The notes under the pieces were generated by a model. It was not told the origin of the DNA. It saw only the letters and a list, made by a program, of their open reading frames with translations, and did no database searches. A stretch of 63,270 nucleotides of DNA, the filler included, from Rhabdomonas costata (taxonomy: Eukaryota): NCBI GenBank assembly GCA_019059605.1. It is 54 parts of 54 records of this genome, joined end to end, with 100 filler letters (N's around TTAATTAATTAA, not from the genome) between each part and the next. Parts side by side here need not be neighbours in the genome. Positions count along the whole stretch, not along the records: positions 48,115 to 49,187 come from JAHMHO010030022.1; positions 49,288 to 50,361 come from JAHMHO010030023.1; positions 50,462 to 51,535 come from JAHMHO010030024.1; 51 more parts are not named here. One strand, given 5' to 3'. Made by a program: the position numbers and the translations under genes. Position 1 is the first letter of the stretch, and every line of letters begins with the position of its first letter. Shown piece by piece: positions 13,347 to 58,687 of this stretch.

Positions 13347-13751
13347 TTAGTCCACGCTGCATAGCAGGGCGACCCCTCGGAGGATCCAGTGGTGGGGCTC
13401 CTCCTCGCAGTTCAGATCGACGTCGAAGATCCAGTTGATGTCATTCCGGGTGGGGTACTTGTAACACGGGCAACGGAACTTGTTCATTGCTCCCTTCTGC
13501 TTCTGCGGGCGGTGGCCCGCCTCCTGCCCAGTGACGTGCAGGATGGGTAGCTCTCGGAACATCTCCTTTGGCGCGGCCTCCTTCACCTTGACGCGGTTCT
13601 TGTCCCAGCTGCAACCCTCCAGGAACAACCCGTAGATGTAAACACCTTCCACGGCGGCGCGGTCGCACTCGTGCTTTTCCATCTTCATCACGTCTGTCTT
13701 TGTCTCCATCTCGTCCAGAGACCAGTTGTCACGGGAATGCGCTCGGCACAC
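13347..13751 (-). CDS. Dynein heavy chain (axonemal type), final exon
   Basis: EGVYIYGLFLEGCSWD...PKEMFRELP...CPCYKYPTR...HWILRGVALLC then TAA; CCCAG acceptor. Confidence 0.95.
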   Translation of the reverse strand: MCRAHSRDNWSLDEMETKTDVMKMEKHECDRAAVEGVYIYGLFLEGCSWDKNRVKVKEAAPKEMFRELPILHVTGQEAGHRPQKQKGAMNKFRCPCYKYPTRNDINWIFDVDLNCEEEPHHWILRGVALLCSVD

Positions 13752-14129
13752 CTGGGAGAAAAGCACCCGAGCTAAAAAATGACGAAGCGAAAACTTCTTG
13801 TGCCTTCATTACCTGCTGTCATTTGAACCATTGCAGATCCAAAAACAACCACGAAAAGCGCCAGAGCATAAAAAGTAACTGCGCGAAGGAGCATGTTCAT
13901 CGTAACTCTGTGTCAACCAAATCCATGAAGACGAGCATGCTCTGAGGGGCAATACCGGAAAGCAAAGCACACACATGCACACACACAANNNNNNNNNNNN
14001 NNNNNNNNNNNNNNNNNNNNNNNNNNNNNNNNTTAATTAATTAANNNNNNNNNNNNNNNNNNNNNNNNNNNNNNNNNNNNNNNNNNNNGCTACCCTCTTC
14101 CTCCCCTCTTCCCTCTGTGGGTGTGCCGG

Positions 14130-21040: not shown

Positions 21041-22021
21041 NNNNNNNNNNNNNNNNNNNNNNNNNNNNNNNNNNNNNNNNNNNNTTAATTAATTAANNNN
21101 NNNNNNNNNNNNNNNNNNNNNNNNNNNNNNNNNNNNNNNNCCCCAAGAGTGGAGATGGACGGCCTCGAGGAGCAAGGATGTGGGGATAGTATCCCAGTTT
21201 CATAGTTACCGGAGGCGGCGCAGCTCATTATAAAGGCACAAAGAGAAATAACTGTGTGGTCGACATTGGGCGAGGGGAGTGGTAAGGCAATGAGCTGACT
21301 GCAGATGAGGAGTCACGTGAAAGGGTGAAAGGAAACGTGAAAAACGGGAAAACGAAGGAGTGAGAGCAGCCCATTGCCTTGTGGGGTGCCAACCAATGAA
21401 ACCAGAGCAACATGGAAAGGGCACCGGGGAAGGAGACACAAAGACACAGTGGGAAGGTATTTGGACAGTAACTGCTAAGGTGTGTATCAGGACGCCGAAA
21501 ACAGGAAGAATGGCAACTCTTCCTGGTCTCAGCGACCCCACGGGCTGAGCCAACTCTGTCATCCAAGAGATCTGCACCCGCCTGTGCATCCATCGCCACC
21601 AGCAGCCAGAATTTCAAGAAATCACTGCTGACGGAAGCGCAGGAATTGCTGAAGAGAATTGCTCGTAGCATTTTTGAAAACCTTCACCACGTACGTTGTC
21701 CAGCTTCGATGCATTTACGTCGCAGCGTCCTTCCCCTTTCCCTCCACCACAACCAATGCAATTCCGAAGTAGGGCGAAGACAAGCTGCTCATGCCAGCGT
21801 ACCACTAGCGTACCATTCCATGAGGTACACACTCACATGCTACCACATTACCATTACAAAGGGCAGGCCAAGCCACGCCCATCACACGGACGCACTGCTG
21901 TACAATTCCCACCACCGGCGCTCCGACACTGACGCCTGCGAAGCCAGGAGTCGCTCCTGGGGACCTCAGGAAGGGTACGAGAAGTCGGACATGTCTGGCC
22001 GAATGTTCCAGAAAAGGTGGG

Positions 22022-22214
22022 TCAGGGAGCCCTTTTACCTGTGTCTGATGCACTTATGCTCTTCTGCGGCAGCGCAAGGGGTCCAGAGGTTCTCTGCTTC
22101 AGCAGCTCCTCCACCGCTGTGTGGCCTTTCCTCTGCGCCCACTCTTCCGCATCCGCCCCTTCCCATTTCACCGTCAGGTTAGCGCCGTAGTCCCTCAGCA
22201 TACGCACAACCACA
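22022..22214 (-). CDS. Ankyrin-repeat protein C-terminus
   Basis: VVRMLRDYGANLTVKWEGADAEEWAQRKGHTAVEELL; clear paralogue of the C-terminus at 52150-52306. Confidence 0.85.
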
Positions 22215-38498: not shown

Positions 38499-40400
38499 GG
38501 TCTGGACAAAGCCTGAGGCCGAGGGCCAGGCCTCTGCGACCATTACAAACGCAGCCGGGACCCCGTCGTTCTCCTCTTTCTCAACCCCGATCACGCCCAA
38601 CACAACCAAAAACCCACACACACNNNNNNNNNNNNNNNNNNNNNNNNNNNNNNNNNNNNNNNNNNNNTTAATTAATTAANNNNNNNNNNNNNNNNNNNNN
38701 NNNNNNNNNNNNNNNNNNNNNNNGGGGTGGTTGCAGAACAGCTGGTGTACCAGCTGGAGGTCTCTGTCTCCTCCCATATGAGGAGCATATAAGCGTCTAG
38801 GAGGAGCAGGAAGTCCGAGCAGTTCAAGAAAGCGTGAACAGCTTCTCGCGCCCTGCGGGCAGTTATGGCAAGCCATCGGTGACATACGTGGCCGCCCAGA
38901 GTCAGAGAAGCTCTATCCGCTTGGACATGATCTCTGGTGCGGTCGAGATGGACGATGATGAGGAGTGGCACTGGCGGTAGGTTGCGGACCGTGTGGTGCA
39001 GGAAGGCCAGGAACCCGAGGCCTGTGATCAGATGGTGGAAAACATGTCGCAGTCAGTACCACGATAGGATACCAGAATACCAGGATACCAGGATAACCTG
39101 GAGTGGAATGGACGGCAAGCGCTTTTCATCAGCTGACCTCTAGCAGCTTGCTTCTTCTCAAAGACCTGATCGACCCCTCGGAATGGCAGTCAGCAGCCAA
39201 CTCTGGATAGATGATCTAGGAGGAATGCCATTCCGAGCAGCTCACCATGACTCAGGCCACCACATGGTTGATCCATGGTGAGCGCACCAGGCGACGGTAA
39301 TACACCCCAAATGAAGACTTGGACCAACGGTTCCGGAAGTAGTGAGAGGCCTTCAATGACGCTCGTAGTAACCACCGGTACAAAGTGGTCGGTATGGTAA
39401 AAGGAGGAGCGCATCTTGGTCTACATTGCCAGCGGGCGGCGGTCTCGCCAACTGCAGCTGAGCTGGAAGTGGCAGATCAAGCACTTGAAGCGGAGCTCCC
39501 GGTAAGCGTACAGTGAGGACGAGGAAGAACGAGAAGACACGTCCATCCAGGAGACCTCCTCCTACGCACGTTAAGCAAAGCAGTCAGGCGTGAAATCGAG
39601 TATAACGCGCAGATAATGCTTGACAGGACGGAGATGTAGTTCGGTGTGGAGAAAAACAACGGGGGAACAACGAGAGCGATAGCAGCGATAGAAGAGAGAG
39701 CAAGAAGAGCGAGCAACCAACCAGGGGGTCTCGTGTGACACCTTCCATGTGCCGGTCCCCGACCTCACAGGCTAGGACCCAGGCAAAACCACAAACNNNN
39801 NNNNNNNNNNNNNNNNNNNNNNNNNNNNNNNNNNNNNNNNTTAATTAATTAANNNNNNNNNNNNNNNNNNNNNNNNNNNNNNNNNNNNNNNNNNNNCGTT
39901 TTGTTGACAAGTATACTTTGGAGGGCAGAGGATAGTGCCACGGCGGCCGGAGCGGGTGGCTGGTATGGGACGTTCCATGAGGTGAGCGTCTATCCGCTTA
40001 GCAGGCGGAAAACCGAGCTGGACCATATTTTGGCTAGGCTATTTTTGGGCAGGTAAACTGCGTCAGCTACCTCTAAACTTCTTTTACTGATCTCTTTTAG
40101 CAAATGGTTTTTGCGTATACTGTTCCAGCGCGTTCGAAAGATTATGACCGTTTAGCAGTGCCTAACGTATATCCATCCACCTCCTTCTTCAAAAAATGCA
40201 GGTTTTTTTAATTGAAGCCGTGGTGCTACTCGCAAATCAAACGGAACACTCCTGGTGATTGACCTTGGGGGGGAAGTGCATGGACTCCGGCGGAAAAAAA
40301 AGTGATCGATTTGAGTAACATCCAGCCGAGGGTGTTGGGTGGCCCGGCGGGCACCAGCTTGTGTGCATCGGTAATCATCGCCTCTGCCTTGCGCCATTAG

Positions 40401-48912: not shown

Positions 48913-50776
48913 GGAAATAGAAGAATAGCTCTTTAGCCACTCCCGAAGCTTCAAATCATCACTGCAGAGCTCCAAGACATCACAATTAGTGATCATCCTC
49001 AAGAAGGAGCAATAAAGGGAAAAAGGTTCACTGCGGTCGGAGTGCCTTATATTATCCAGCTCTCACGCGTTATGACACATGCGGGCTCATTGCTCCTGGT
49101 CAAAGCAACAACAACCGAAAATAACTGTGCAGCCCCCTCGGTGCTCTTCCCTCCCCCTTCTTGATTTCGATTTCGATTTCGCCACTCNNNNNNNNNNNNN
49201 NNNNNNNNNNNNNNNNNNNNNNNNNNNNNNNTTAATTAATTAANNNNNNNNNNNNNNNNNNNNNNNNNNNNNNNNNNNNNNNNNNNNGGTTTGTGGGGGC
49301 GAAGGAGATGCTGAAGGGAACCTGCTGTTTGCCCAGCTTCGCGCACGTGGGGAAGACCATTGAGCGCGTTCCCACTCACTGCAAAGAAAAATGAAGACGA
49401 ACAACAGGTTGCATCACCTGAAAAGCTCACCACGGCTTCCGCTTGCAGTGCTCCTCCGGGGTTGCCTTTGCTAGCATTATGGGAACTAGTGGTGGCCTTT
49501 GCAACATAGTTGCCATCAGTCATCGTGGTTGTCAACTACAACGACGACAGCTACACCCAAAAAAGGAAACCAGCGGAATATTGCAGCCAGCGGTTTTCAA
49601 GCAATCCCGTGATGTGAACTTTGGCAAGTAACCGGCAACGAACAACAGCAAAGAGCACTCGCACATCCAAAAAAAACATCCGAGAAGAGCCCGTTGTGCT
49701 GAATAATGGTCATGGGTAGTCTTTTTCACCATCCCCATGAAAGTACAAATGACATTTTATTGGTACTGCGATTGCATCTCTCTCAGGCTCGGGCATATCT
49801 ACCCGGGTGCTCCACGATAATAGTATACACAAGCAACTCAATGCAAAAGGGCTACAAAGAACAGTTCGGGCACCCCATTTACGGTGATGACAGCTCTACT
49901 TCAAACGACAACATCCAACCATGATGGAAAACTATATGTCTGTACTTCGTGGCCCACCCGGTACTTGCTGGTGACCTTGATGTGACCCAATGAGATACGA
50001 TGCACAGTGACAGCTCAAAGCCACAGGCAATGGATAGCGCTTCTTTCCTGCCTCTATCTGCCCTCATAACAGAAACCTGCCCGGGGCCGTACGGCTCCCC
50101 CAAGCCCGCGCTGCGGGCTGTCCGACCCATGCGCGCACATCGGCGTGCCCTCTGCGCTGCTGCTGATCTCTGAGTTGCTCCTTCCCCGAGACACGCTCTC
50201 GTCCTCCTCCAGCGCTCTCCTCTGCAGATCCATATTCAGCCGCTCCGTCGAAATCATCGACATGGGCGCCGCAGCCACCGAAGACGGGCCGGATGACGAT
50301 GATGAAGCACCAGACGACGAGGAGGAAGCTGCCGCTGCTGCAGGCTTGGGCACCAAACCCANNNNNNNNNNNNNNNNNNNNNNNNNNNNNNNNNNNNNNN
50401 NNNNNTTAATTAATTAANNNNNNNNNNNNNNNNNNNNNNNNNNNNNNNNNNNNNNNNNNNNTGTGTGGTTGTGCTGACAGCGGACTCCGCGCCACTGCGT
50501 TGAGAGACGCTGTTCCTTTGGACATATATATTTGTTTTTGCGAAAATATTTAACAAAAACAAACAGTAAGTAAAAAAATAAATATAGTTGTAAAATGCAT
50601 AACAAAATCATTGTCAGATTTATCACATTTATCAATCATTAAAGAGCTGATGGTGTCGTTATCAAATAAATGTAAAGAATGTAAGAAACATTTTTTTGGC
50701 TTGAAAATATTTTTTATGTTGTAATAAATTAAGTCCTGATTCATAATTTTGAATAAAATCAGTTAATTTCATGTCA

Positions 50777-51215
50777 TAAATACTAAAAGGAATACCATTT
50801 GTATCACATAATACGGATATTTTGACAGATTTTTTTATTTTGGTAATATTTGCCAATACATTCAACACCAAATAAATTAACAATAACAGAGGAGTCGATA
50901 ATAAAAATATTTTTTCTTTCTTTTGTTTTGATAATATTTGGTAGAATAAGACATTAATAATTCTTTATAAGCAGTTTCAAATAGATGTAGATGTTGCCAT
51001 TTTTAAAAACTTTAAAAATCGTAGAATAGTGATTAGGTTTTGTTGTATTTGAATGAATAGGATTTTTGGTGACTTCTCTCCATGAAATACCATTTTTTAG
51101 ACAGTAAATAATTGTTTTTAGGTAATATTCATTTGAATAAGTAGAACGTCGAATGGGCGGTGATAATTTAGATGATAATTCATCTTAATTTATTTGATAT
51201 AATATAGAATATAAT
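50777..51215 (-). pseudogene. Frameshifted IS5-family (IS4 superfamily) DDE transposase, AT-rich
   Basis: YSNEYYLKTIFYCLKNGISWRE...HYSTIFKVFK/KWQHLHLFE...FIIDSS...KISVLCDTNGIPFSI across three frameshifts at A/T runs. Confidence 0.8.
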
Positions 51216-51284
51216 TTTTTGTTTATATTCTTTTTATAAAAGAACAAATAAAAAATAAATAAAAATTATTAATTCCACAACTCC

Positions 51285-51535
51285 AATATATAACAACAAC
51301 TGATATGTTTCAGAGGCCATTGATGAATGGCATTCATCAATAATAACAAATTTTGGAATAATATGTTTTTTAAATTCTTAAAATTAAATTTATAAATATT
51401 AGATGTTTTTGTTGTTAAATATGCTCGATTAATGATAATAAATAATGGTTTTTCATGTGGAACATTTGATTTTTTATGCAGTTGTATTCTTTTTGATGTT
51501 TATAAACATAACTTCTAACATCAAATTTTGACATA
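51285..51535 (-). pseudogene. Decayed superfamily-2 helicase (DEXH/ResIII-like), AT-rich
   Basis: KPLFIIINRAYLT, then after a disrupted stretch IPKFVIIDECHSS (Walker B DECH). Confidence 0.65.
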
Positions 51536-51635
51536 NNNNNNNNNNNNNNNNNNNNNNNNNNNNNNNNNNNNNNNNNNNNTTAATTAATTAANNNNNNNNN
51601 NNNNNNNNNNNNNNNNNNNNNNNNNNNNNNNNNNN

Positions 51636-52306
51636 GTTTGGTCCTGCTGGAATGGCCACCGCGACACCGCCGAGCTTCTGCTGCGCAGACGGGCCGACGT
51701 CAACGTTGCGATGAACGATGGGGTCACGCCTCTTTTCATGGCTTGTCAAAATGGCCACCGGCTTTGGCCGACTACTCGGGAGCGTTCTCCACAGAAAGTG
51801 AATCGTCTCCTCCAACAGCAAACCTATGGTCCTCTACCCGCATCCTCTGCGACCACGACACTGCCGAGCTGCTGCTGCAGAAAAAGGCCGACGTCAATCT
51901 GGCAAAGAAAGACGGGGCCCCGCCTCTTTTCATGGCATGCGAGAAGGGTCACCGTGACATCGCGGAGCTGCTGCTGCACAGCCGTGCCGACGTCAACCTG
52001 AAGCAGAGAGAAGGGGCCCCACCTCTTTTCGTGGCCTGCGAGAAGGGTCGCCGTGACATCGCGGAGCTGCTGCTGCACAGCCGTGCCGACGCCAACGTGG
52101 CGAGGAACGATGGGACCACCCCTCTGATTATGGCAGTATGCAACGGCCACACTGAGGTTGTCGCTGTGCTGGCGGATCACGGTGCGGACTTGGCAGCGAA
52201 GTTCAGTGGGGCGGACGCTGCGGAGTGGGCGCGACGGCAGGGCCACGGCGCGGTGGAGGAGCTGCTGCGGCAGAGGCTTTCACAGCGGCAGCCAAAGTCG
52301 ACTTAA
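51636..52306 (+). CDS. Ankyrin-repeat protein, C-terminal part, interrupted by a 95-nt insert
   Basis: 33-aa repeats G.TPLFMAC..GH.D.AELLL...ADVN; removing 51761-51855 restores GHRDTAELLL. Confidence 0.9.
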
Positions 52307-52682
52307 AAACGGTGAAAGTGTGAACGGAAGAACAAGGAGAGAGACACGCGCAGGAAGAGGTTTGGTTACTTTTCTTGTGTGATTTCTGTGTGTGCATAGG
52401 AAAAGTGCGCTGGCTCTTCCGGCTCTTCTCGCGCGTTTCCCAGTCCAAAAGTTGTTTTTATTCGCAGGATCTTCTGAAGTCGTGGCACGCAATGTCAAAG
52501 CATTTTCTTCGCTAAGAGAATGATATCTCCAAAGACGCTAAGAACACCAACGAATGGAAGTTTCCCACAGAAAGTGTCCCAAGGGCGTACCTTTGACTAT
52601 GAAGTGGGGAGTGCCTTTGTGGCAATGTAATCTTATCGGCTTGCACAAGGAATGACATTTGGCACAGTTGGTTGGTCCTATT

Positions 52683-52709
52683 ACTACTACTACTACTACT
52701 ACTACTACT
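52683..52709 (+). repeat. (ACT)n microsatellite at contig end
   Basis: Seen directly. Confidence 0.95.
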
Positions 52710-53780: not shown

Positions 53781-56611
53781 GTGCGTTGCCAGCCCAGCCC
53801 TCTGCCCCCTCTCCTCAGCCACCACCACTACCATTAGGACAAGACAAAGAGCTGCAGGAATGCTACAACAATGTCACCCAAAANNNNNNNNNNNNNNNNN
53901 NNNNNNNNNNNNNNNNNNNNNNNNNNNTTAATTAATTAANNNNNNNNNNNNNNNNNNNNNNNNNNNNNNNNNNNNNNNNNNNNTGTTGTTGGGACGTCCA
54001 GAAAGGAATGCAGGCGGCTAGCAGTTACAAGGGCTGTAGAGATCCGAAAAGGGACATCAACTACATTCCTATCCTGGACGTCCCAAAATCACTAATCAAA
54101 TTTATCACTCCACTCCAAAGGGAATCTGAAGCGGTGTGTGCGTAGAGCGTATGAGCAAATGTGATGGTGTGTCAGCAGCGTGAAGTTGGGAGTTGTTTCA
54201 GAGGATAGGAGTAGTGTGACCCACTCTTCACTGTTCGATCGGTGGGCAGTAATCTCTCTTTTGAACAAACCCCGCCCAAGTCACCGCCTGTCAGCTCCCA
54301 GGCGCTCCAGAAAAACGTAGTACAACAGCACAGCATCCCATTGTGGTAGTGAAACTGAACATCACCTGACATACAGCCGTGGCAAAGTCAGAAGAAGGCA
54401 TCTTGCTCTGCAGGTCGTGTGGGCAACGACACGCTGCAGAAAGGGGAAATGAGTGGGGAAGCGAGGAGAGTGTTCTACAAGTTGGCCAAGGCAGTGTCCG
54501 CGCTGGCAATCAGTTCGGTCGCCGTGCGAAGTTCTTCAGCAGCCGAAGCCTGCAGCTCCTCTGTGTTCGAGCTCTGCAATTGTAACAAAAGAAGAACGAG
54601 GGCGGAACTAACTTTTCTGGCTTACTGCGCTTGTGAGCTGTATGTTACCGGTGTCTTTTCTCAGGTCCCTATTTTAGTATGGATACTCGGCATGTGCTGG
54701 TCAAACTCACTGATAGTGCATCGGTCACAGTGGGTCAAGGCATGTCAGACTCGCCCTTGTGATTGAGCAAGGCCAGCACGAGTCCGTGTGACTACTACTC
54801 ATAGGGTGACTCCCCTTGGGACTTCGATGTGGGTGAAAAAACACGGATTCACCAACCAACTCTGGGCACAAACTTGTGGCTCGAAGGCGAATGACGACAG
54901 ACAGGAAATGGTATTGGCTCATTGAGGCTCAAGGGAAAAACCGACAACGGGCCACCTTTGACTCGATACCGCCGATAAAAATAAACGCCACTTCAAATGC
55001 GCCCATACCCGCATAAGAAAGCGGGAAGCTTCTTGGGACAAAACCACCCAACACACCNNNNNNNNNNNNNNNNNNNNNNNNNNNNNNNNNNNNNNNNNNN
55101 NTTAATTAATTAANNNNNNNNNNNNNNNNNNNNNNNNNNNNNNNNNNNNNNNNNNNNTAGAGCTCTGCCGCGCGTGTAAACCAAATACGAAAAAAGTCAT
55201 CTCAACTCGTTCAGTTACAACTACATCCCAGCAAGTGACAGCAGCGCATGAAAAAATTCCTCCGACGCCAGCCCTCCATTCCGCTAAGGATAGGATTCAC
55301 ACACACAGGCAAAACTGGTCAAGCAAGCCGTCCACAGCTATTTCCAATTCATCCCGTTCGTATGCCTCACGGGGTTAGCCAATGTCGCACTAATGAAGCC
55401 ACCCCAACAACTCGTTCCAAAAAGGAACCACGCTCTGTCGGCATGGAAAGAAGAATGGGTTCCCCGGCCTAAAGAGAACGCGTCAAATGATGGCTTCAGC
55501 TCCGAAGCTCTCGACGACCGATCAAAACCAGACCCATTTCCCACGGCTGCCTGGCAGAAACACTTCTTAATCGCATCTTCCATGCTGCAATGGCAGCTTC
55601 ATCTTCAGTTGGCATCGCCGATGGAGTGGATTCCACTCGCTCGACGGAAACTTGTCGTTTCGCAGGTGGTCTTCTCAGAGTGGCCTGCCTTATTTGCACA
55701 GCGCGTTCAGCATGAAATTGTTGAACTCATTATAGACAACGCACTTGAAATGGATCGAATCGTAGGCGTACCTATAGAGTGCAAAACGAATCCGGAAACA
55801 CAGAAAACAACCCAAATGTTTCTCATGCTTGCTTCGCAAACAAAAGGGGAAGAATATGGGAGGGATTACTCCACAGAAAGGGATAATCTTTACCTTCCTC
55901 CCATTTCCCCCATTTTCAGATCCGCATGCCTCATAAGTCCAACCCTGGGCAGACACATCGGCACCCTCAATGGTTGCTGCTGGGCAAACCAAGGAATCTT
56001 TATTACTTGTACATCCCAAAATCAATTTTTTTTGGGAAAAGAGTCACAGCGGCAGCGAATAGAGTGTTCAAGGGCCGCAAGAAAGGCAATGCACCTGGTT
56101 TACGCTGGTTGGCAAGGAAGGAAAAAGACACGATGGAGTATGCGCCATGGTCAAGTAATCATAGCGTGAAAAAGAGTGGAGAACACATGCCGTGGATGTG
56201 CTGTGATCCAAAAGGGGGTAAAGGAAACAAANNNNNNNNNNNNNNNNNNNNNNNNNNNNNNNNNNNNNNNNNNNNTTAATTAATTAANNNNNNNNNNNNN
56301 NNNNNNNNNNNNNNNNNNNNNNNNNNNNNNNTGTTGGGGTTTTTGTTGGTGATGCGTGGAAGTGAATGGGTGTTGATTTTTTGTTGTGCTCTAAGCAGAA
56401 CTGCCGCGTAACCAGAGGTTCTGCGGGTTCCCTCTGGGCTCAGCAAAAGAAAAGTGTGTTAGATGGATGAGTGGCAGCCGTGCCTTTGGTATGAGGTTGA
56501 GGGTTACCTGAGGAGTTCAACCTGCATTGGACCTGCATGGGTTGAAGCCCTGTGAGTGAACTGTGAGTGAGTCAGTGACTAGGTGCTTGGGTGGGTGTTT
56601 ATGTGTGGCAG

Positions 56612-57150
56612 ATCGGGAGCTGCTGCAGGCCCTGCAGGCACGTGGGGTGCGGAAGGAGAACCCTTACCAGCATGGAGGGGAGGATTTCCACGAGTTCTGG
56701 CTGCCCGACGTGGTGGAGATGGCGAAGTCCAAGTACGGCGAGGAGGCCCTGGTGCAACGGTGGCTGTGTTGTTTGCCGCGTGCCTGTCCCTCGACGAGCG
56801 CGCATGCGTGCGTGCGGGGGGGGGGGATCTCAAAGAAGCTCAGTCAGTGCAGAGTTCTTTATACCCAGGAGGATGGAGGAGTGCCTTGTCTCAATCGTTG
56901 TCTGTTGAACCCACTGGAGGGGTGGGTTAAAATTTCACATGTTCCCGCGCCTAATGCGCGCACGCACACACACATTGAGCTGCCCGTTGCCCATTCGCCC
57001 ATCCGAAAGAATAGATCAAAGGCAACAGCCAGCGCGCTATGCGGCCTACACACACACGTACGCACAGATACCGCGACTACATTAGCGGAGATCTCTCCCA
57101 GGAGTCCATCCGTGTCATCTATGGCTTCGACAAGGACACCCTTCAAAAGG
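56612..57150 (+). CDS. Unknown protein, exons 56612-56759 and from 57068
   Basis: Phase-2 GT-AG intron joins ...SKYGEEALVQR to YRDYISGDLSQESIRVIYGFDKD; coding-like codons. Confidence 0.6.
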
Positions 57151-58687
57151 CTAGGGAGCCCCGCCGGGCCAGGTCCTCCGCTGGAAAAGGTGCGCGTTTG
57201 GTCTGCTTGACGTTCGTCAATCCATCTGTTCGTCTCTCCGAGCCAATGGGTACGGGGAGGAACCTAAGGTAAACTGCCCGGTTTTGCGGCGGCGGCCGAG
57301 TCCCACGATGTCCGAGTGCTCCATTTGGGAGGAGGCAGGCAATGCTTCTACTTCTTCCCGCAAATCAAATCAGTAGCGACAAGGTGAACTAAGCTATGCA
57401 GATGNNNNNNNNNNNNNNNNNNNNNNNNNNNNNNNNNNNNNNNNNNNNTTAATTAATTAANNNNNNNNNNNNNNNNNNNNNNNNNNNNNNNNNNNNNNNN
57501 NNNNGTTTTGGGGGTCGTACGTTGGGTCAGGGGGGTCAGGGTGCGTTACTGGAGGGTGCGTTGGGTCAGGGTGTTGGTGTGACTGCTGCTTCTGTGCCCG
57601 CTTCTGTGTCTGTGGCCACGCACCACACCAAACAAGCACACAAGCAACACAGCCATCACCGCAATACCCAAAGCCTTGTGAGGAATCGCACGAATCACAC
57701 CGTAGAAAGGCAAGAACTACCACTCAGGAGCAATCAACGCAGGAGTGACCATAGGGTTAGCAGGCACATAGTTATCCGGATGACCGAAGCGATCTTGGTC
57801 CCAGAAGGCACGCATACCCAGAATCAGCGCAGGAATACACACGATAGCAGCATGACGACCCAACAACAGTGGCTAGAAGTTCACACGATCCGACCTACCG
57901 ACGAACAACCCTGCACCAAACACACACCCCACCTGACCCGTAGAATTCACCAAATGCAACACCAACAGATGGACAAGCACGAGCACGGTAAGCACCATGG
58001 GTAAGAGGAAATGCACACCGAAACACCGTTTCACCGTAGCCCCTCACACCACCCCACAACAACTCCAAGATCTGTACACCCACCACAGAGAGCAAATCAC
58101 CACCAAAGCCCACAGAGTCATCTGACCCTACACCAACGAATACCCCGTAAAGCAAGCACCACACAGCAACAACCAGATACCCACACCAATACACCAGATC
58201 GCACCACGAGACAACGAAGAGCCATGCAACAAACAACCGATCATATGAGCACGTACACGCACATGAAGAACACAGAAGCACCATTCGCATTAAGACCGCG
58301 CAACACCACCCCAGCATCCAATTCCCAACCCACAGCCACCACACTCGAAAACGCTCACTCGGCAGAAGGACAGAAGGACAATACCAACACGCTAGCGCAA
58401 ACCACACACATTCCTGCACAGAACCCCAATGACAAGCCTGGAGACAACAACGCCGACGCCGAGTCTACTTGCAACACAGCGGAAGAACCCAGTAGCACAA
58501 CGGAACCCAGGATACCAAAGACCGACACCGACACCGAACCCAGACACAGAAGGCCGACTCCGAAACCGAACCCAAAACNNNNNNNNNNNNNNNNNNNNNN
58601 NNNNNNNNNNNNNNNNNNNNNNTTAATTAATTAANNNNNNNNNNNNNNNNNNNNNNNNNNNNNNNNNNNNNNNNNNNNGGGGTGGGG

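What the first reader, a model, noticed from the sequence alone, without database searches (positions are those of the whole stretch)
50462..51535. AT-rich island of decayed giant-virus-like genes joined to host-like DNA
Seen: an abrupt shift near 50520 from balanced GC to roughly 75-80% AT (by eye); two intronless, disrupted minus-strand genes in tandem, an SF2 helicase (KPLFIIINRAYLT...IIDECHS) and an IS5-family transposase (YSNEYYL...GISWR...HYSTI...IDSS...KIS..CD..GIP). From memory, both motif styles and the composition resemble genes of AT-rich Mimiviridae. Inference: an endogenised, decaying Nucleocytoviricota fragment recording infection of this flagellate lineage. Best novelty candidate in the window.
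Basis: partly seen in the sequence, partly recalled or inferred. Interest (0 to 1): 0.8.

Follow-up and report, generated by a model that had tools for sequence, protein, structure and literature searches.

The report
Dead giant-virus DNA scrap, junction unproven
A 1-kb, very AT-rich scrap of giant-virus-type DNA carrying a broken helicase gene and a broken jumping-gene enzyme is attached to only about 50 bases of cell-like DNA, so it may record an old infection written into a cell's genome, but this window cannot prove it.

Summary
The window is 54 unrelated contigs of about 1.07 kb glued by N/TTAATTAATTAA linkers. The finding is exactly one contig (50462-51535). Its neighbours beyond the Ns are not contiguous with it.

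Inside the contig the composition break is real. There are 12 nt of amplification primer, then 47 nt at 62% GC, then 1,015 nt at 22% GC.

Both genes are real, on the minus strand, and broken:
- **Helicase:** an internal piece of a ~790-aa SF2/ResIII helicase, with one sure frameshift and nothing after motif II.
- **Transposase:** the first half of an IS5-family transposase, with three frameshifts and the second half absent.

The closest located full-length relative of the helicase (52% identity) lies in a 753-kb giant-virus bin. That bin has capsid, VLTF3 and MutS genes plus eight IS5-like fragments. The same scan found no relative in prokaryote genomes.

Giant-virus origin is therefore supported. 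Endogenisation rests only on a ~50-nt stub beside a whole-genome-amplification primer. I rate a true integrated relic at about 0.45 and an amplification chimera at about 0.3. Reads could not be examined.

This is an ordinary kind of thing, of modest interest.

The parts
50462..50473 (.). G/T-only 12-mer: leftover of the degenerate part (K10NN) of the whole-genome-amplification primer, not template sequence
   Evidence: 69 of 108 contig ends in the window start with a G/T-only run of 10 nt or more, against 0.57% of internal positions. The constant primer part was found 4 times, all at or within about 20 nt of contig ends, with a chance expectation of 0.13. The primer is given as TGTGTTGGGTGTGTTTGGKKKKKKKKKKNN in a Methods passage of PMC10781638.
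50474..50523 (.). GC-rich, cell-like stub (about 50 nt). On the minus strand an ATG at 50521-50519 opens a 17-codon reading frame that runs into the primer
   Evidence: GC is 61.7% over 50474-50520. 47-nt windows this GC-rich make up 17.1% of windows in the other contigs but 0.29% in 160 kb of giant-virus loci. There is no match to any other contig of the window apart from the primer part. There is no Rfam or tRNA match and no exact match in JGI metagenome contigs.
50524..50531 (.). (AT)4 tract lying exactly at the composition break
   Evidence: ATATATAT/TATATATA occurs at only 3 sites (4 overlapping matches), in 3 of the 54 contigs. One of them is here.
50532..50778 (.). AT-rich tail without recognisable coding. 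It sits where transposase residues 145-270 should be encoded but are not
   Evidence: hmmsearch of the transposase model (A1) and the helicase model (A2) against all six-frame pieces gave nothing here below E=1.
50779..51163 (-). IS5-family transposase gene fragment covering model positions 17-144 of 270, read in frames 0>2>0>1. It holds three frameshifts, at A5/T5 (51000-51004), A6 (50910-50915) and A7 (50830-50836). The first catalytic-D block (IFIIDSS) is present; the second D and the E are absent
   Evidence: Four colinear hmmsearch hits have E-values of 2.6e-21, 5.8e-4, 1.4e-13 and 3.9e-6. tblastn of P0001 gives 46% identity over 129 aa, E 4e-31. P0001 was found at E 1.1e-10 in 5.8 billion proteins. 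The relatives match PF01609 and NF033580, the IS5 family. The frameshift DNA is shown.
51164..51284 (-). AT-rich spacer between the end of helicase homology and the transposase. It possibly holds the left end of the insertion sequence and the transposase start (ATG 51197-51195, in another frame)
   Evidence: The translations show no helicase continuation in any frame. No convincing terminal inverted repeat was found.
51285..51460 (-). Internal fragment of an SF2/ResIII helicase gene, covering model positions 251-308 of 792. It contains KPLFIIINRAYLT and motif II (VIIDECH). One sure frameshift lies at A6 (51366-51371). Homology stops abruptly after ...YQLLLYI
   Evidence: Six relatives are 71-84% identical over 25-31 aa, and all match PF04851. 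Two colinear hmmsearch hits have E-values of 4.9e-6 and 1.5e-13. tblastn of P0007 gives a summed E of 7e-14. Pfam ResIII matches the piece itself only at E 0.043.
51461..51535 (-). Possible upstream continuation of the helicase in a third frame (MSKFDVRSYVYKHQKEY...), which would need a second frameshift at A6 (51470-51475). The contig ends here without a primer
   Evidence: The resemblance to ...KFxIIEHIYNK... in the relatives is by eye only. hmmsearch was not significant. The G/T run at this end is 1 nt long.

Best explanation
The 1,015 AT-rich bases are a dead scrap of giant-virus-type (Nucleocytoviricota) DNA. An IS5-family insertion sequence sits where the last ~480 codons of an ~790-codon SF2 helicase gene should be. 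Only the middle of the helicase is on the contig, and only the first half of the transposase gene is left. Both carry frameshifts at A/T runs. Nothing here can work as a gene.

I read the attached ~50 nt of GC-rich DNA as a real junction. On that reading the scrap is a young relic lying in a GC-balanced cellular genome, presumably that of the amplified cell, and its composition has not yet drifted towards that genome.

Shown: the gene identities, the breaks, the virus affinity of the helicase, and the composition step inside one contig. Inferred: that the junction existed in the cell and not only in the amplified DNA, and that the cellular genome is the flagellate's.
For: - **Virus affinity.** The helicase pieces match a family whose full-length member L001 is 52% identical over residues 77-804. 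L001 lies in G001, a 753-kb bin rated 94% complete, with 3 Capsid_NCLDV matches, VLTF3 and MutS. The same pattern scan gave 9 loci in IMG/VR and 0 in 185,579 prokaryote species genomes. tblastn in phages and plasmids gave nothing.
- **The genes are broken.** In G001 the orthologous helicase is an intact 780-aa frame. Here it has a frameshift and stops after motif II. The transposase has three frameshifts and lacks model positions 145-270. Two broken genes in 1 kb suit a relic better than a replicating virus.
- **The stub is cell-like.** GC of at least 61.7% over 47 nt is seen in 17.1% of windows of the other contigs, against 0.29% in giant-virus loci.
- **The junction is not the expected artefact type.** No amplification primer lies at the break, as concatenated amplicons would show. 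All 4 matches to the constant primer part are at contig ends. The passage read in PMC4527218 puts inter-chromosomal chimeras at 1.13% of MDA chimeras, though that is a different chemistry.
Against: - Only about 50 nt of cell-like DNA is attached, and it lies directly beside the amplification primer. A short run-off extension product re-priming on AT-rich DNA would give exactly this layout.
- An (AT)4 tract sits at the break.
- Single-cell amplification is known to make chimeric molecules (passages of PMC12256942).
- No reads, no whole assembly and no second copy could be examined.
- The stub matches nothing else in the window, so 'host' rests on composition alone.
- There is no compositional drift and no nonsense codon inside the aligned blocks, and the retained parts are as conserved as intact homologues are among themselves. 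All four sure frameshifts sit at A/T runs of 5-7, which also fits sequencing error.
- The virus bin G001 itself holds 8 partial IS5-like matches and no full-length one, so transposase relics are normal inside giant viruses.
Confidence: 0.45

Rival explanations
1. The AT-rich DNA comes from giant-virus DNA that was merely present with the cell (infection, a meal, or an attached particle). The GC-rich stub was joined to it in the tube. A primer-extension product that ran off a short heat-broken cell fragment re-annealed by its AT-rich 3' end to viral DNA and was extended, giving a chimeric amplicon.
For: The assembly comes from K10NN-primer whole-genome amplification of heat-fragmented DNA. 69 of 108 contig ends carry the primer remnant, and 23 of 54 contigs carry it at both ends. 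The stub is only about 50 nt, directly after the primer, and the break is an (AT)4 tract. Chimeric amplicons are a recognised artefact of single-cell amplification (passages in PMC12256942 and PMC4527218). Giant-virus bins contain IS5 relics of their own.
Against: It needs two rare things at once: a cross-genome chimera and a viral region with two broken genes. The ortholog is intact in G001. There is no internal primer at the break. I found no chimera rate for this particular chemistry in the passages read.
Confidence: 0.3
2. The junction is real but lies inside a virus genome. The GC-rich stub would then be the start of a recently captured cellular gene, or another GC-rich patch, in an otherwise 22%-GC giant virus. 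An ATG sits exactly at the break on the minus strand.
For: On the minus strand an ATG at 50521-50519 opens a frame into the GC-rich part, straight after AT-rich DNA, as at a viral gene start. GC-rich 47-nt patches do occur in giant-virus loci, in 461 of 160,223 windows clustered in 8 of 25 loci.
Against: Such patches were absent from every locus at or below 29.5% GC, including all with GC of 28% or less. Only 17 codons are visible, so no homology test is possible.
Confidence: 0.08
3. The AT-rich DNA is not viral. It would come from an AT-rich bacterium, organelle or other eukaryote in the sample that happens to carry an IS5 element and a ResIII helicase.
For: IS5-family transposases are mainly bacterial. 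P0001 matches 203 plasmid records at 25-28% identity in the listed rows. The atlas look-alikes of both proteins include bacterial clusters. The closest relatives, P0001-P0003 and P0005-P0010, come from unnamed metagenome contigs whose origin I could not see.
Against: The helicase family was found in 9 IMG/VR loci (6 named GVMAG) and in none of the prokaryote genomes with the same patterns. There was no phage or plasmid match for the helicase or the contig DNA. The transposase model was not found in prokaryote genomes by pattern scan either.
Confidence: 0.1

Closest known systems
Giant-virus-derived insertions in protist and algal genomes (giant endogenous viral elements and smaller NCLDV gene fragments; recalled from the literature, e.g. 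work on green algae, not read here)
   Same: AT-rich virus-type genes, broken, contiguous with cell-like DNA, and a composition unlike the rest of the genome.
   Different: Known cases are documented on long scaffolds with host genes on both sides. Here only about 50 nt of one flank exists, in amplified DNA, and no core viral gene is on the contig.
SF2/ResIII helicase of giant-virus bin G001 (contig C8, locus L001) and its metagenomic relatives P0005-P0010
   Same: The window's blocks KPLFIIINRAYLTTKT and PKFVIIDECHSSMASETYQLLLY align colinearly with them. Identity is 71-84% over 25-31 aa to P0005-P0010 and 72% over 25 aa to L001.
   Different: Those proteins are intact, at 752-862 aa (780 aa in G001). 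The window keeps only about 58 sure codons, with a frameshift and no motifs III-VI.
IS5-family insertion sequences (NCBIfam NF033580 type; Pfam DDE_Tnp_1 with a DUF4096-like N-terminus), also known from giant viruses
   Same: The N-terminal YSNEYYL...GISWR...HYST block and the first catalytic-D block match. Giant viruses are described as carrying diverse IS families (passage of bioRxiv 10.1101/299784). G001 has 8 related fragments, one within 5 kb of the capsid gene.
   Different: Only half a gene is present, with no second D or E and no recognisable terminal inverted repeats. The nearest full-length relatives are uncharacterised metagenome proteins. Bacterial IS5 elements are only 25-28% identical.
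Chimeric amplicons of single-cell whole-genome amplification
   Same: The junction lies close to a primer, in amplified DNA from fragmented template, with a low-complexity tract at the break.
   Different: There is no primer sequence at the junction, and the partner DNA is itself structurally damaged, which a single chimera does not explain.

Membership tests
IS5-family transposase (DDE_Tnp_1 / NF033580) | Significant sequence match to family members over the N-terminal DNA-binding region | tested here: met
   hmmsearch of the model of P0001-P0003 gives 68.3 bits over model positions 17-71. Pfam DUF4096 matches the piece itself only weakly, at E 0.013, below the cut-off.
IS5-family transposase (DDE_Tnp_1 / NF033580) | Complete DDE catalytic triad | tested here: not met
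   Only the first D block (IFIIDSS against LIIDST) is present. Model positions 145-270, with GDKGY and the E block, are not found in any frame. It is a gene fragment, not a transposase.
IS5-family transposase (DDE_Tnp_1 / NF033580) | Terminal inverted repeats and a target-site duplication bounding the element | tested here: inconclusive
   The repeat finder gave only weak AT-rich pairs, and the best one lies inside conserved helicase coding sequence. The far end of the element would fall beyond the AT-rich part.
IS5-family transposase (DDE_Tnp_1 / NF033580) | The relatives reach the curated family cut-offs | tested here: met
   PF01609 is above the cut-off in 3 of 3 relatives. NF033580 is above the cut-off in 1 of 3 (P0003 at 111.8 against 110; P0001 at 98.6; P0002 at 90.5).
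SF2 helicase, ResIII type (PF04851) | Motif II (DExH) in the right context, and motif Ia region | tested here: met
   VIIDECHSSMA and KPLFIIINRAYL align colinearly to model positions 251-308. Pfam ResIII on the piece gives E 0.043. The relatives are above the cut-off.
SF2 helicase, ResIII type (PF04851) | Motif I (Walker A) and motifs III-VI / Helicase_C | tested here: not met
   Motif I (GSGKS in the relatives) would lie upstream of the contig end. Motifs III-VI are absent in every frame downstream of 51285.
Nucleocytoviricota (giant-virus) DNA | Closest located relatives lie in genomes that carry NCLDV core genes | tested here: met
   L001 lies in G001, which has Capsid_NCLDV at 132 bits, VLTF3 at 169 bits and MutS_V at 156 bits. 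The core genes are on other contigs of the bin than the helicase.
Nucleocytoviricota (giant-virus) DNA | A core gene (capsid, PolB, A32, VLTF3) on the same molecule | tested here: not met
   The contig holds only the two fragments. The rest of the assembly is not available.
Nucleocytoviricota (giant-virus) DNA | The family is absent from cellular prokaryotes and phages at comparable sensitivity | tested here: met
   There were 0 relatives in GTDB genome contigs with the same patterns that found 9 viral loci. There were 0 tblastn matches in phages and plasmids.
Mimiviridae / Imitervirales | Early-promoter octamer AAAATTGA upstream of genes (recalled motif) | tested here: not met
   There are 0 matches inside 50462-51535. 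There are 3 elsewhere in the window, against 3.7 expected. Only one short intergenic stretch exists, so the test is weak.
Endogenous viral element | Viral DNA flanked by host DNA on the same native molecule | tested here: inconclusive
   One flank of about 50 nt lies in an amplified molecule. The other end of the contig is AT-rich without a primer.
Endogenous viral element | Signs of neutral decay (frameshifts, truncations) | tested here: met
   There are four sure frameshifts and two truncations. There is no nonsense codon in the aligned blocks, and all frameshifts lie at homopolymers, so sequencing error is not excluded.

The most novel reading that the evidence does not exclude
The scrap reached a cellular chromosome through its own IS5 element. 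The virus-borne insertion sequence would have transposed, or mis-transposed one-ended, from an infecting giant virus into the flagellate genome and dragged a piece of the neighbouring helicase gene with it. That would be a transposase-driven route of virus-to-host DNA transfer, caught young, before any compositional drift.
Probability: 0.07. Interest if true: 0.6.

Novelty: new member of a known kind. Interest (0 to 1): 0.27.

Why it matters
If the junction is real, this scrap ties an uncultured eukaryote to a particular clade of AT-rich giant viruses. It would add one more young virus-derived insertion to a phenomenon that is already well documented.

If the junction is an amplification chimera, the contig only shows that giant-virus DNA was in or on the cell. 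That is also a known observation in single-cell genomics.

There is a practical lesson for the scan. In windows built from glued short contigs, and in assemblies made from primer-tagged amplified DNA, a composition 'island' can simply be a separate contig. A junction next to a primer remnant also needs read-level proof.

Tried and rejected
- **Whole-genome search:** no genome is held for this window.
- **Sequencing-run and read look-up:** The junction could therefore not be checked in reads.
- **Representative-library job:** Only its first ~44 residues are in the helicase frame. The only hit (P0004) is a repetitive protein that matches the out-of-frame part, and it is spurious.
- **Single-protein scans of IMG/VR with the window pieces or P0001:** nothing.
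- **The transposase alignment A1:** no relative in IMG/VR, GTDB genomes or JGI metagenome contigs by pattern scan.
- **Contig DNA against phages and plasmids:** no match.
- **Exact 43-nt search for the stub in metagenome contigs:** nothing.
- **PDB profile search with the helicase family:** nothing.
- **Rfam and ARAGORN on the window and contig:** nothing, so the GC-rich stub is not a recognisable RNA gene.
- **Homopolymer error rate of the assembly.** I tried to measure it from host contigs.
  - Pfam on 20 long or abutting frames recognised only a dynein tail and a carbamoyl-phosphate-synthase piece.
  - The dynein frame is preceded by what looks like an intron, not a frameshift.
  - Abutting frames were not visibly enriched by my eye over the list.
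  - Technical and biological frameshifts therefore stay unresolved.
- **Ciliate-type stop reassignment:** considered and rejected. The breaks are frame changes, not in-frame stops.
- **Inverted repeat 50541-50562 / 51406-51427 as insertion-sequence ends:** rejected. One arm lies in conserved helicase coding sequence.
- **Supplementary files of papers:** not consulted.
Full report
**What the window is**

Splitting the window on N gives 54 contigs of 1,054-1,082 bases. They are joined by 53 identical linkers of N44-TTAATTAATTAA-N44. The finding's coordinates, 50462-51535, are exactly one contig. The GC-balanced DNA to its left and right in the window is therefore unrelated sequence.

The contig is the only AT-rich one. 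Its GC is 24.2%, against 42.7-58.5% for the other 53. No other contig has even a 200-nt window below 33% GC.

**How the DNA was made**

- 69 of 108 contig ends begin with a run of 10 or more bases that are only G or T. Such runs start at 0.57% of internal positions, and no end carries the complementary A/C run.
- 23 of 54 contigs carry the run at both ends.
- The 18-nt constant part of a known amplification primer matches four times with up to 3 mismatches, always at or within about 20 nt of a contig end. The chance expectation is 0.13.
- A Methods passage of PMC10781638 gives that primer as TGTGTTGGGTGTGTTTGGKKKKKKKKKKNN. It is used to tag heat-fragmented single-cell DNA before amplification.

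The contigs are therefore amplicons of a degenerate-primer whole-genome amplification. The host is a eukaryote. A dynein heavy-chain C-terminal domain with an apparent intron upstream lies at 13350-13805.

**Anatomy of the contig**

| Coordinates | Content |
|---|---|
| 50462-50473 | G/T-only primer remnant |
| 50474-50523 | GC-rich stub (61.7% GC over 50474-50520) |
| 50524-50531 | (AT)4 tract, one of only three sites of that motif in the window |
| 50532-51535 | AT-rich DNA (22.2% GC from 50521 on) |

The AT-rich end has no primer, so the amplicon ran on beyond the contig.

**The transposase**

The 76-aa piece 50954-51184(-) found one protein among 5.8 billion. This was P0001, 262 aa, labelled transposase by its source, at E 1.1e-10 and 59% identity. 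P0001 found two more relatives. All three match Pfam DDE_Tnp_1 above the cut-off, and they match NCBIfam IS5 family NF033580 at 90-112 bits against a cut-off of 110.

A profile of the three hits four colinear minus-strand pieces in frames 0, 2, 0 and 1. These cover model positions 17-71, 71-98, 96-133 and 124-144 of 270, with E-values from 2.6e-21 to 5.8e-4 among 74 six-frame pieces. No plus-strand piece scores.

That makes three frameshifts. They lie at T5A5 (51000-51004), A6 (50910-50915) and A7 (50830-50836). Positions 145-270, which hold the second D and the E of the catalytic triad, are not encoded in any frame of the remaining 258 AT-rich bases.

**The helicase**

The 47-aa piece 51234-51377(-) found six proteins at E 1.4e-4 to 2.5e-2 and 71-84% identity over 25-31 residues. 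All carry Pfam ResIII. Five of them are 752-862 aa, and two are labelled superfamily II helicase.

A profile of those five hits two colinear pieces: model 251-282 in frame 0 and model 284-308 in frame 2 (E 4.9e-6 and 1.5e-13). tblastn gives a summed E of 7e-14. The frame change is at an A6 run, 51366-51371.

Homology stops at 51285. The relatives go on to ...GLSATPYR and about 480 more residues, but no frame here does. Upstream, a further frame (MSKFDV...) resembles the relatives by eye only.

The contig therefore carries the middle of a helicase gene. It is cut off after motif II, and about 90 bases further on the transposase gene begins. The simplest reading, which is an inference, is an insertion sequence that landed in the helicase gene.

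**Whose genes**

The helicase profile, scanned through IMG/VR, gave 9 confirmed loci, 6 of them on contigs named GVMAG. The best, L001, is 52% identical over residues 77-804. All the loci have 23.5-33% GC.

L001 belongs to G001, which the tool describes as a giant virus bin of 753 kb in 32 contigs, rated 94% complete. G001 contains:
- three Capsid_NCLDV matches, the best 132 bits against a cut-off of 34.8;
- VLTF3 at 169 bits;
- a 943-aa MutS frame;
- an intact 780-aa ortholog of the helicase;
- eight partial matches to the transposase profile, one of them 5 kb from the capsid gene on the same contig.

The core genes are on other contigs of the bin than the helicase, so that link rests on the binning.

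The same helicase patterns found nothing in 185,579 prokaryote species genomes. tblastn found nothing in phages or plasmids. The contig DNA matched nothing in either collection.

The transposase is less telling. It is 27-32% identical to the G001 fragments and 25-28% identical to bacterial plasmid IS5 elements. Atlas look-alikes of both proteins mix viral and bacterial clusters, so they are leads only. Giant viruses are described as carrying diverse insertion-sequence families (passage of bioRxiv 10.1101/299784).

I conclude with about 0.85 confidence that the AT-rich DNA is of giant-virus type. The family-level guess 'Mimiviridae' is only loosely supported. G001 has a MutS gene, but the recalled motif AAAATTGA is absent from the contig.

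**Is it endogenised?**

For a real junction:
- The stub is cell-like. 47-nt windows this GC-rich are 17.1% of windows in the other contigs, 0.29% in 160 kb of giant-virus loci, and none in any locus at or below 29.5% GC, so none at or below 28% (some loci overlap, so the counts are approximate).
- There is no primer at the break.
- Two broken genes within 1 kb are unusual for a replicating virus, and the ortholog in G001 is intact.

Against a real junction:
- The stub is only about 50 nt, lies directly after the primer and ends in an (AT)4 tract. A run-off extension product that re-primes on AT-rich DNA would look just like this.
- Chimeric amplicons are a recognised artefact of single-cell amplification (passages of PMC12256942 and PMC4527218). 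I found no rate for this chemistry.
- The stub matches nothing else in the window or in JGI metagenome contigs.
- The virus bin itself is full of transposase relics.
- All four sure frameshifts lie at A/T runs of 5-7. Windows of 10-14 nt that contain a run of 6 or more make up only 5-9% of the AT-rich part. This fits either young slippage mutations or homopolymer miscalls.
- There is no nonsense codon in the aligned blocks, and conservation is as high as among intact homologues.
- I could not measure the assembly's indel error rate. Reads and the rest of the assembly were not available.

**Verdict**

My odds are:

| Reading | Odds |
|---|---|
| Young virus-derived relic in a cellular genome | 0.45 |
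| Co-amplified viral DNA with an in-tube chimera | 0.30 |
| Junction internal to a virus genome | 0.08 |
| Non-viral AT-rich source | 0.10 |
| Something else | remainder |

In every reading the two genes are dead fragments with no present function. Virus-derived insertions in protist genomes, and viral DNA in single-cell assemblies, are both well-known kinds of finding. The interest is therefore modest until read-level evidence for the junction exists.

Noticed in passing
whole window, e.g. 1075-1174, 50362-50461, 51536-51635: The window is not one genomic stretch. It is 54 length-sorted contigs of about 1,074 bp joined by N44-TTAATTAATTAA-N44 linkers. Any feature that seems to span a linker is an artefact of the concatenation.
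   Followed up: yes
contig ends throughout, e.g. 1175-1206, 22315-22341, 38596-38623: Untrimmed remnants of a degenerate G/T amplification primer sit at 69 of 108 contig ends, and the constant primer part survives at four ends. The first 10-30 bases of most contigs are therefore not genomic sequence.
   Followed up: yes
L003:9989-12931(+), L008:4459-7365(+); likely also L002:2912-5839, L005:2918-5842, L006:9998-12916: The more distant giant-virus relatives of the helicase (30-32% identity) are proteins of about 970 aa. They fuse an N-terminal ResIII/SF2 helicase to a bacterial-type DNA polymerase III alpha NTPase plus finger domain (129 and 128 bits in the two checked). This is an unusual architecture for a eukaryotic virus.
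   Followed up: partly
G001 (giant virus bin): C18:11831-12346, C3:1549-1941, C28, C30, C12, C6: The bin holds eight partial matches to the IS5-like transposase profile, in open frames of 74-180 aa, and no full-length copy. One lies 5 kb from the capsid gene. The virus genome itself seems to be littered with transposase relics.
   Followed up: partly
window 13350-13805(-): The end of a dynein heavy chain gene (Dynein_C, E 1.3e-37, reaching the last model position). It is preceded by what looks like an intron acceptor, so the GC-balanced contigs are intron-bearing eukaryotic genomic DNA.
   Followed up: partly
window 51636-52709 and 21141-22214: These are two contigs, one of which (51636-52709) reads by eye as ankyrin repeats. 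They share a 68-nt stretch at 79% identity, the only similarity between contigs in the window. The first has a non-repeat insert, possibly an intron, inside a repeat around 51760-51850.
   Followed up: no
window 28157-29230, 56332-57404: G or C runs of 10-11 bases lie inside otherwise ordinary contigs. They could be real, or an artefact of the sequencing chemistry.
   Followed up: no
L001:12207-15023(+), L001:15057-15578(-), L001:1573-2316(+): Next to the intact helicase in the giant-virus bin lie three genes: a 938-aa protein that fuses an N6 DNA methylase with type I specificity domains, an HNH endonuclease and a caspase-domain protein.
   Followed up: no
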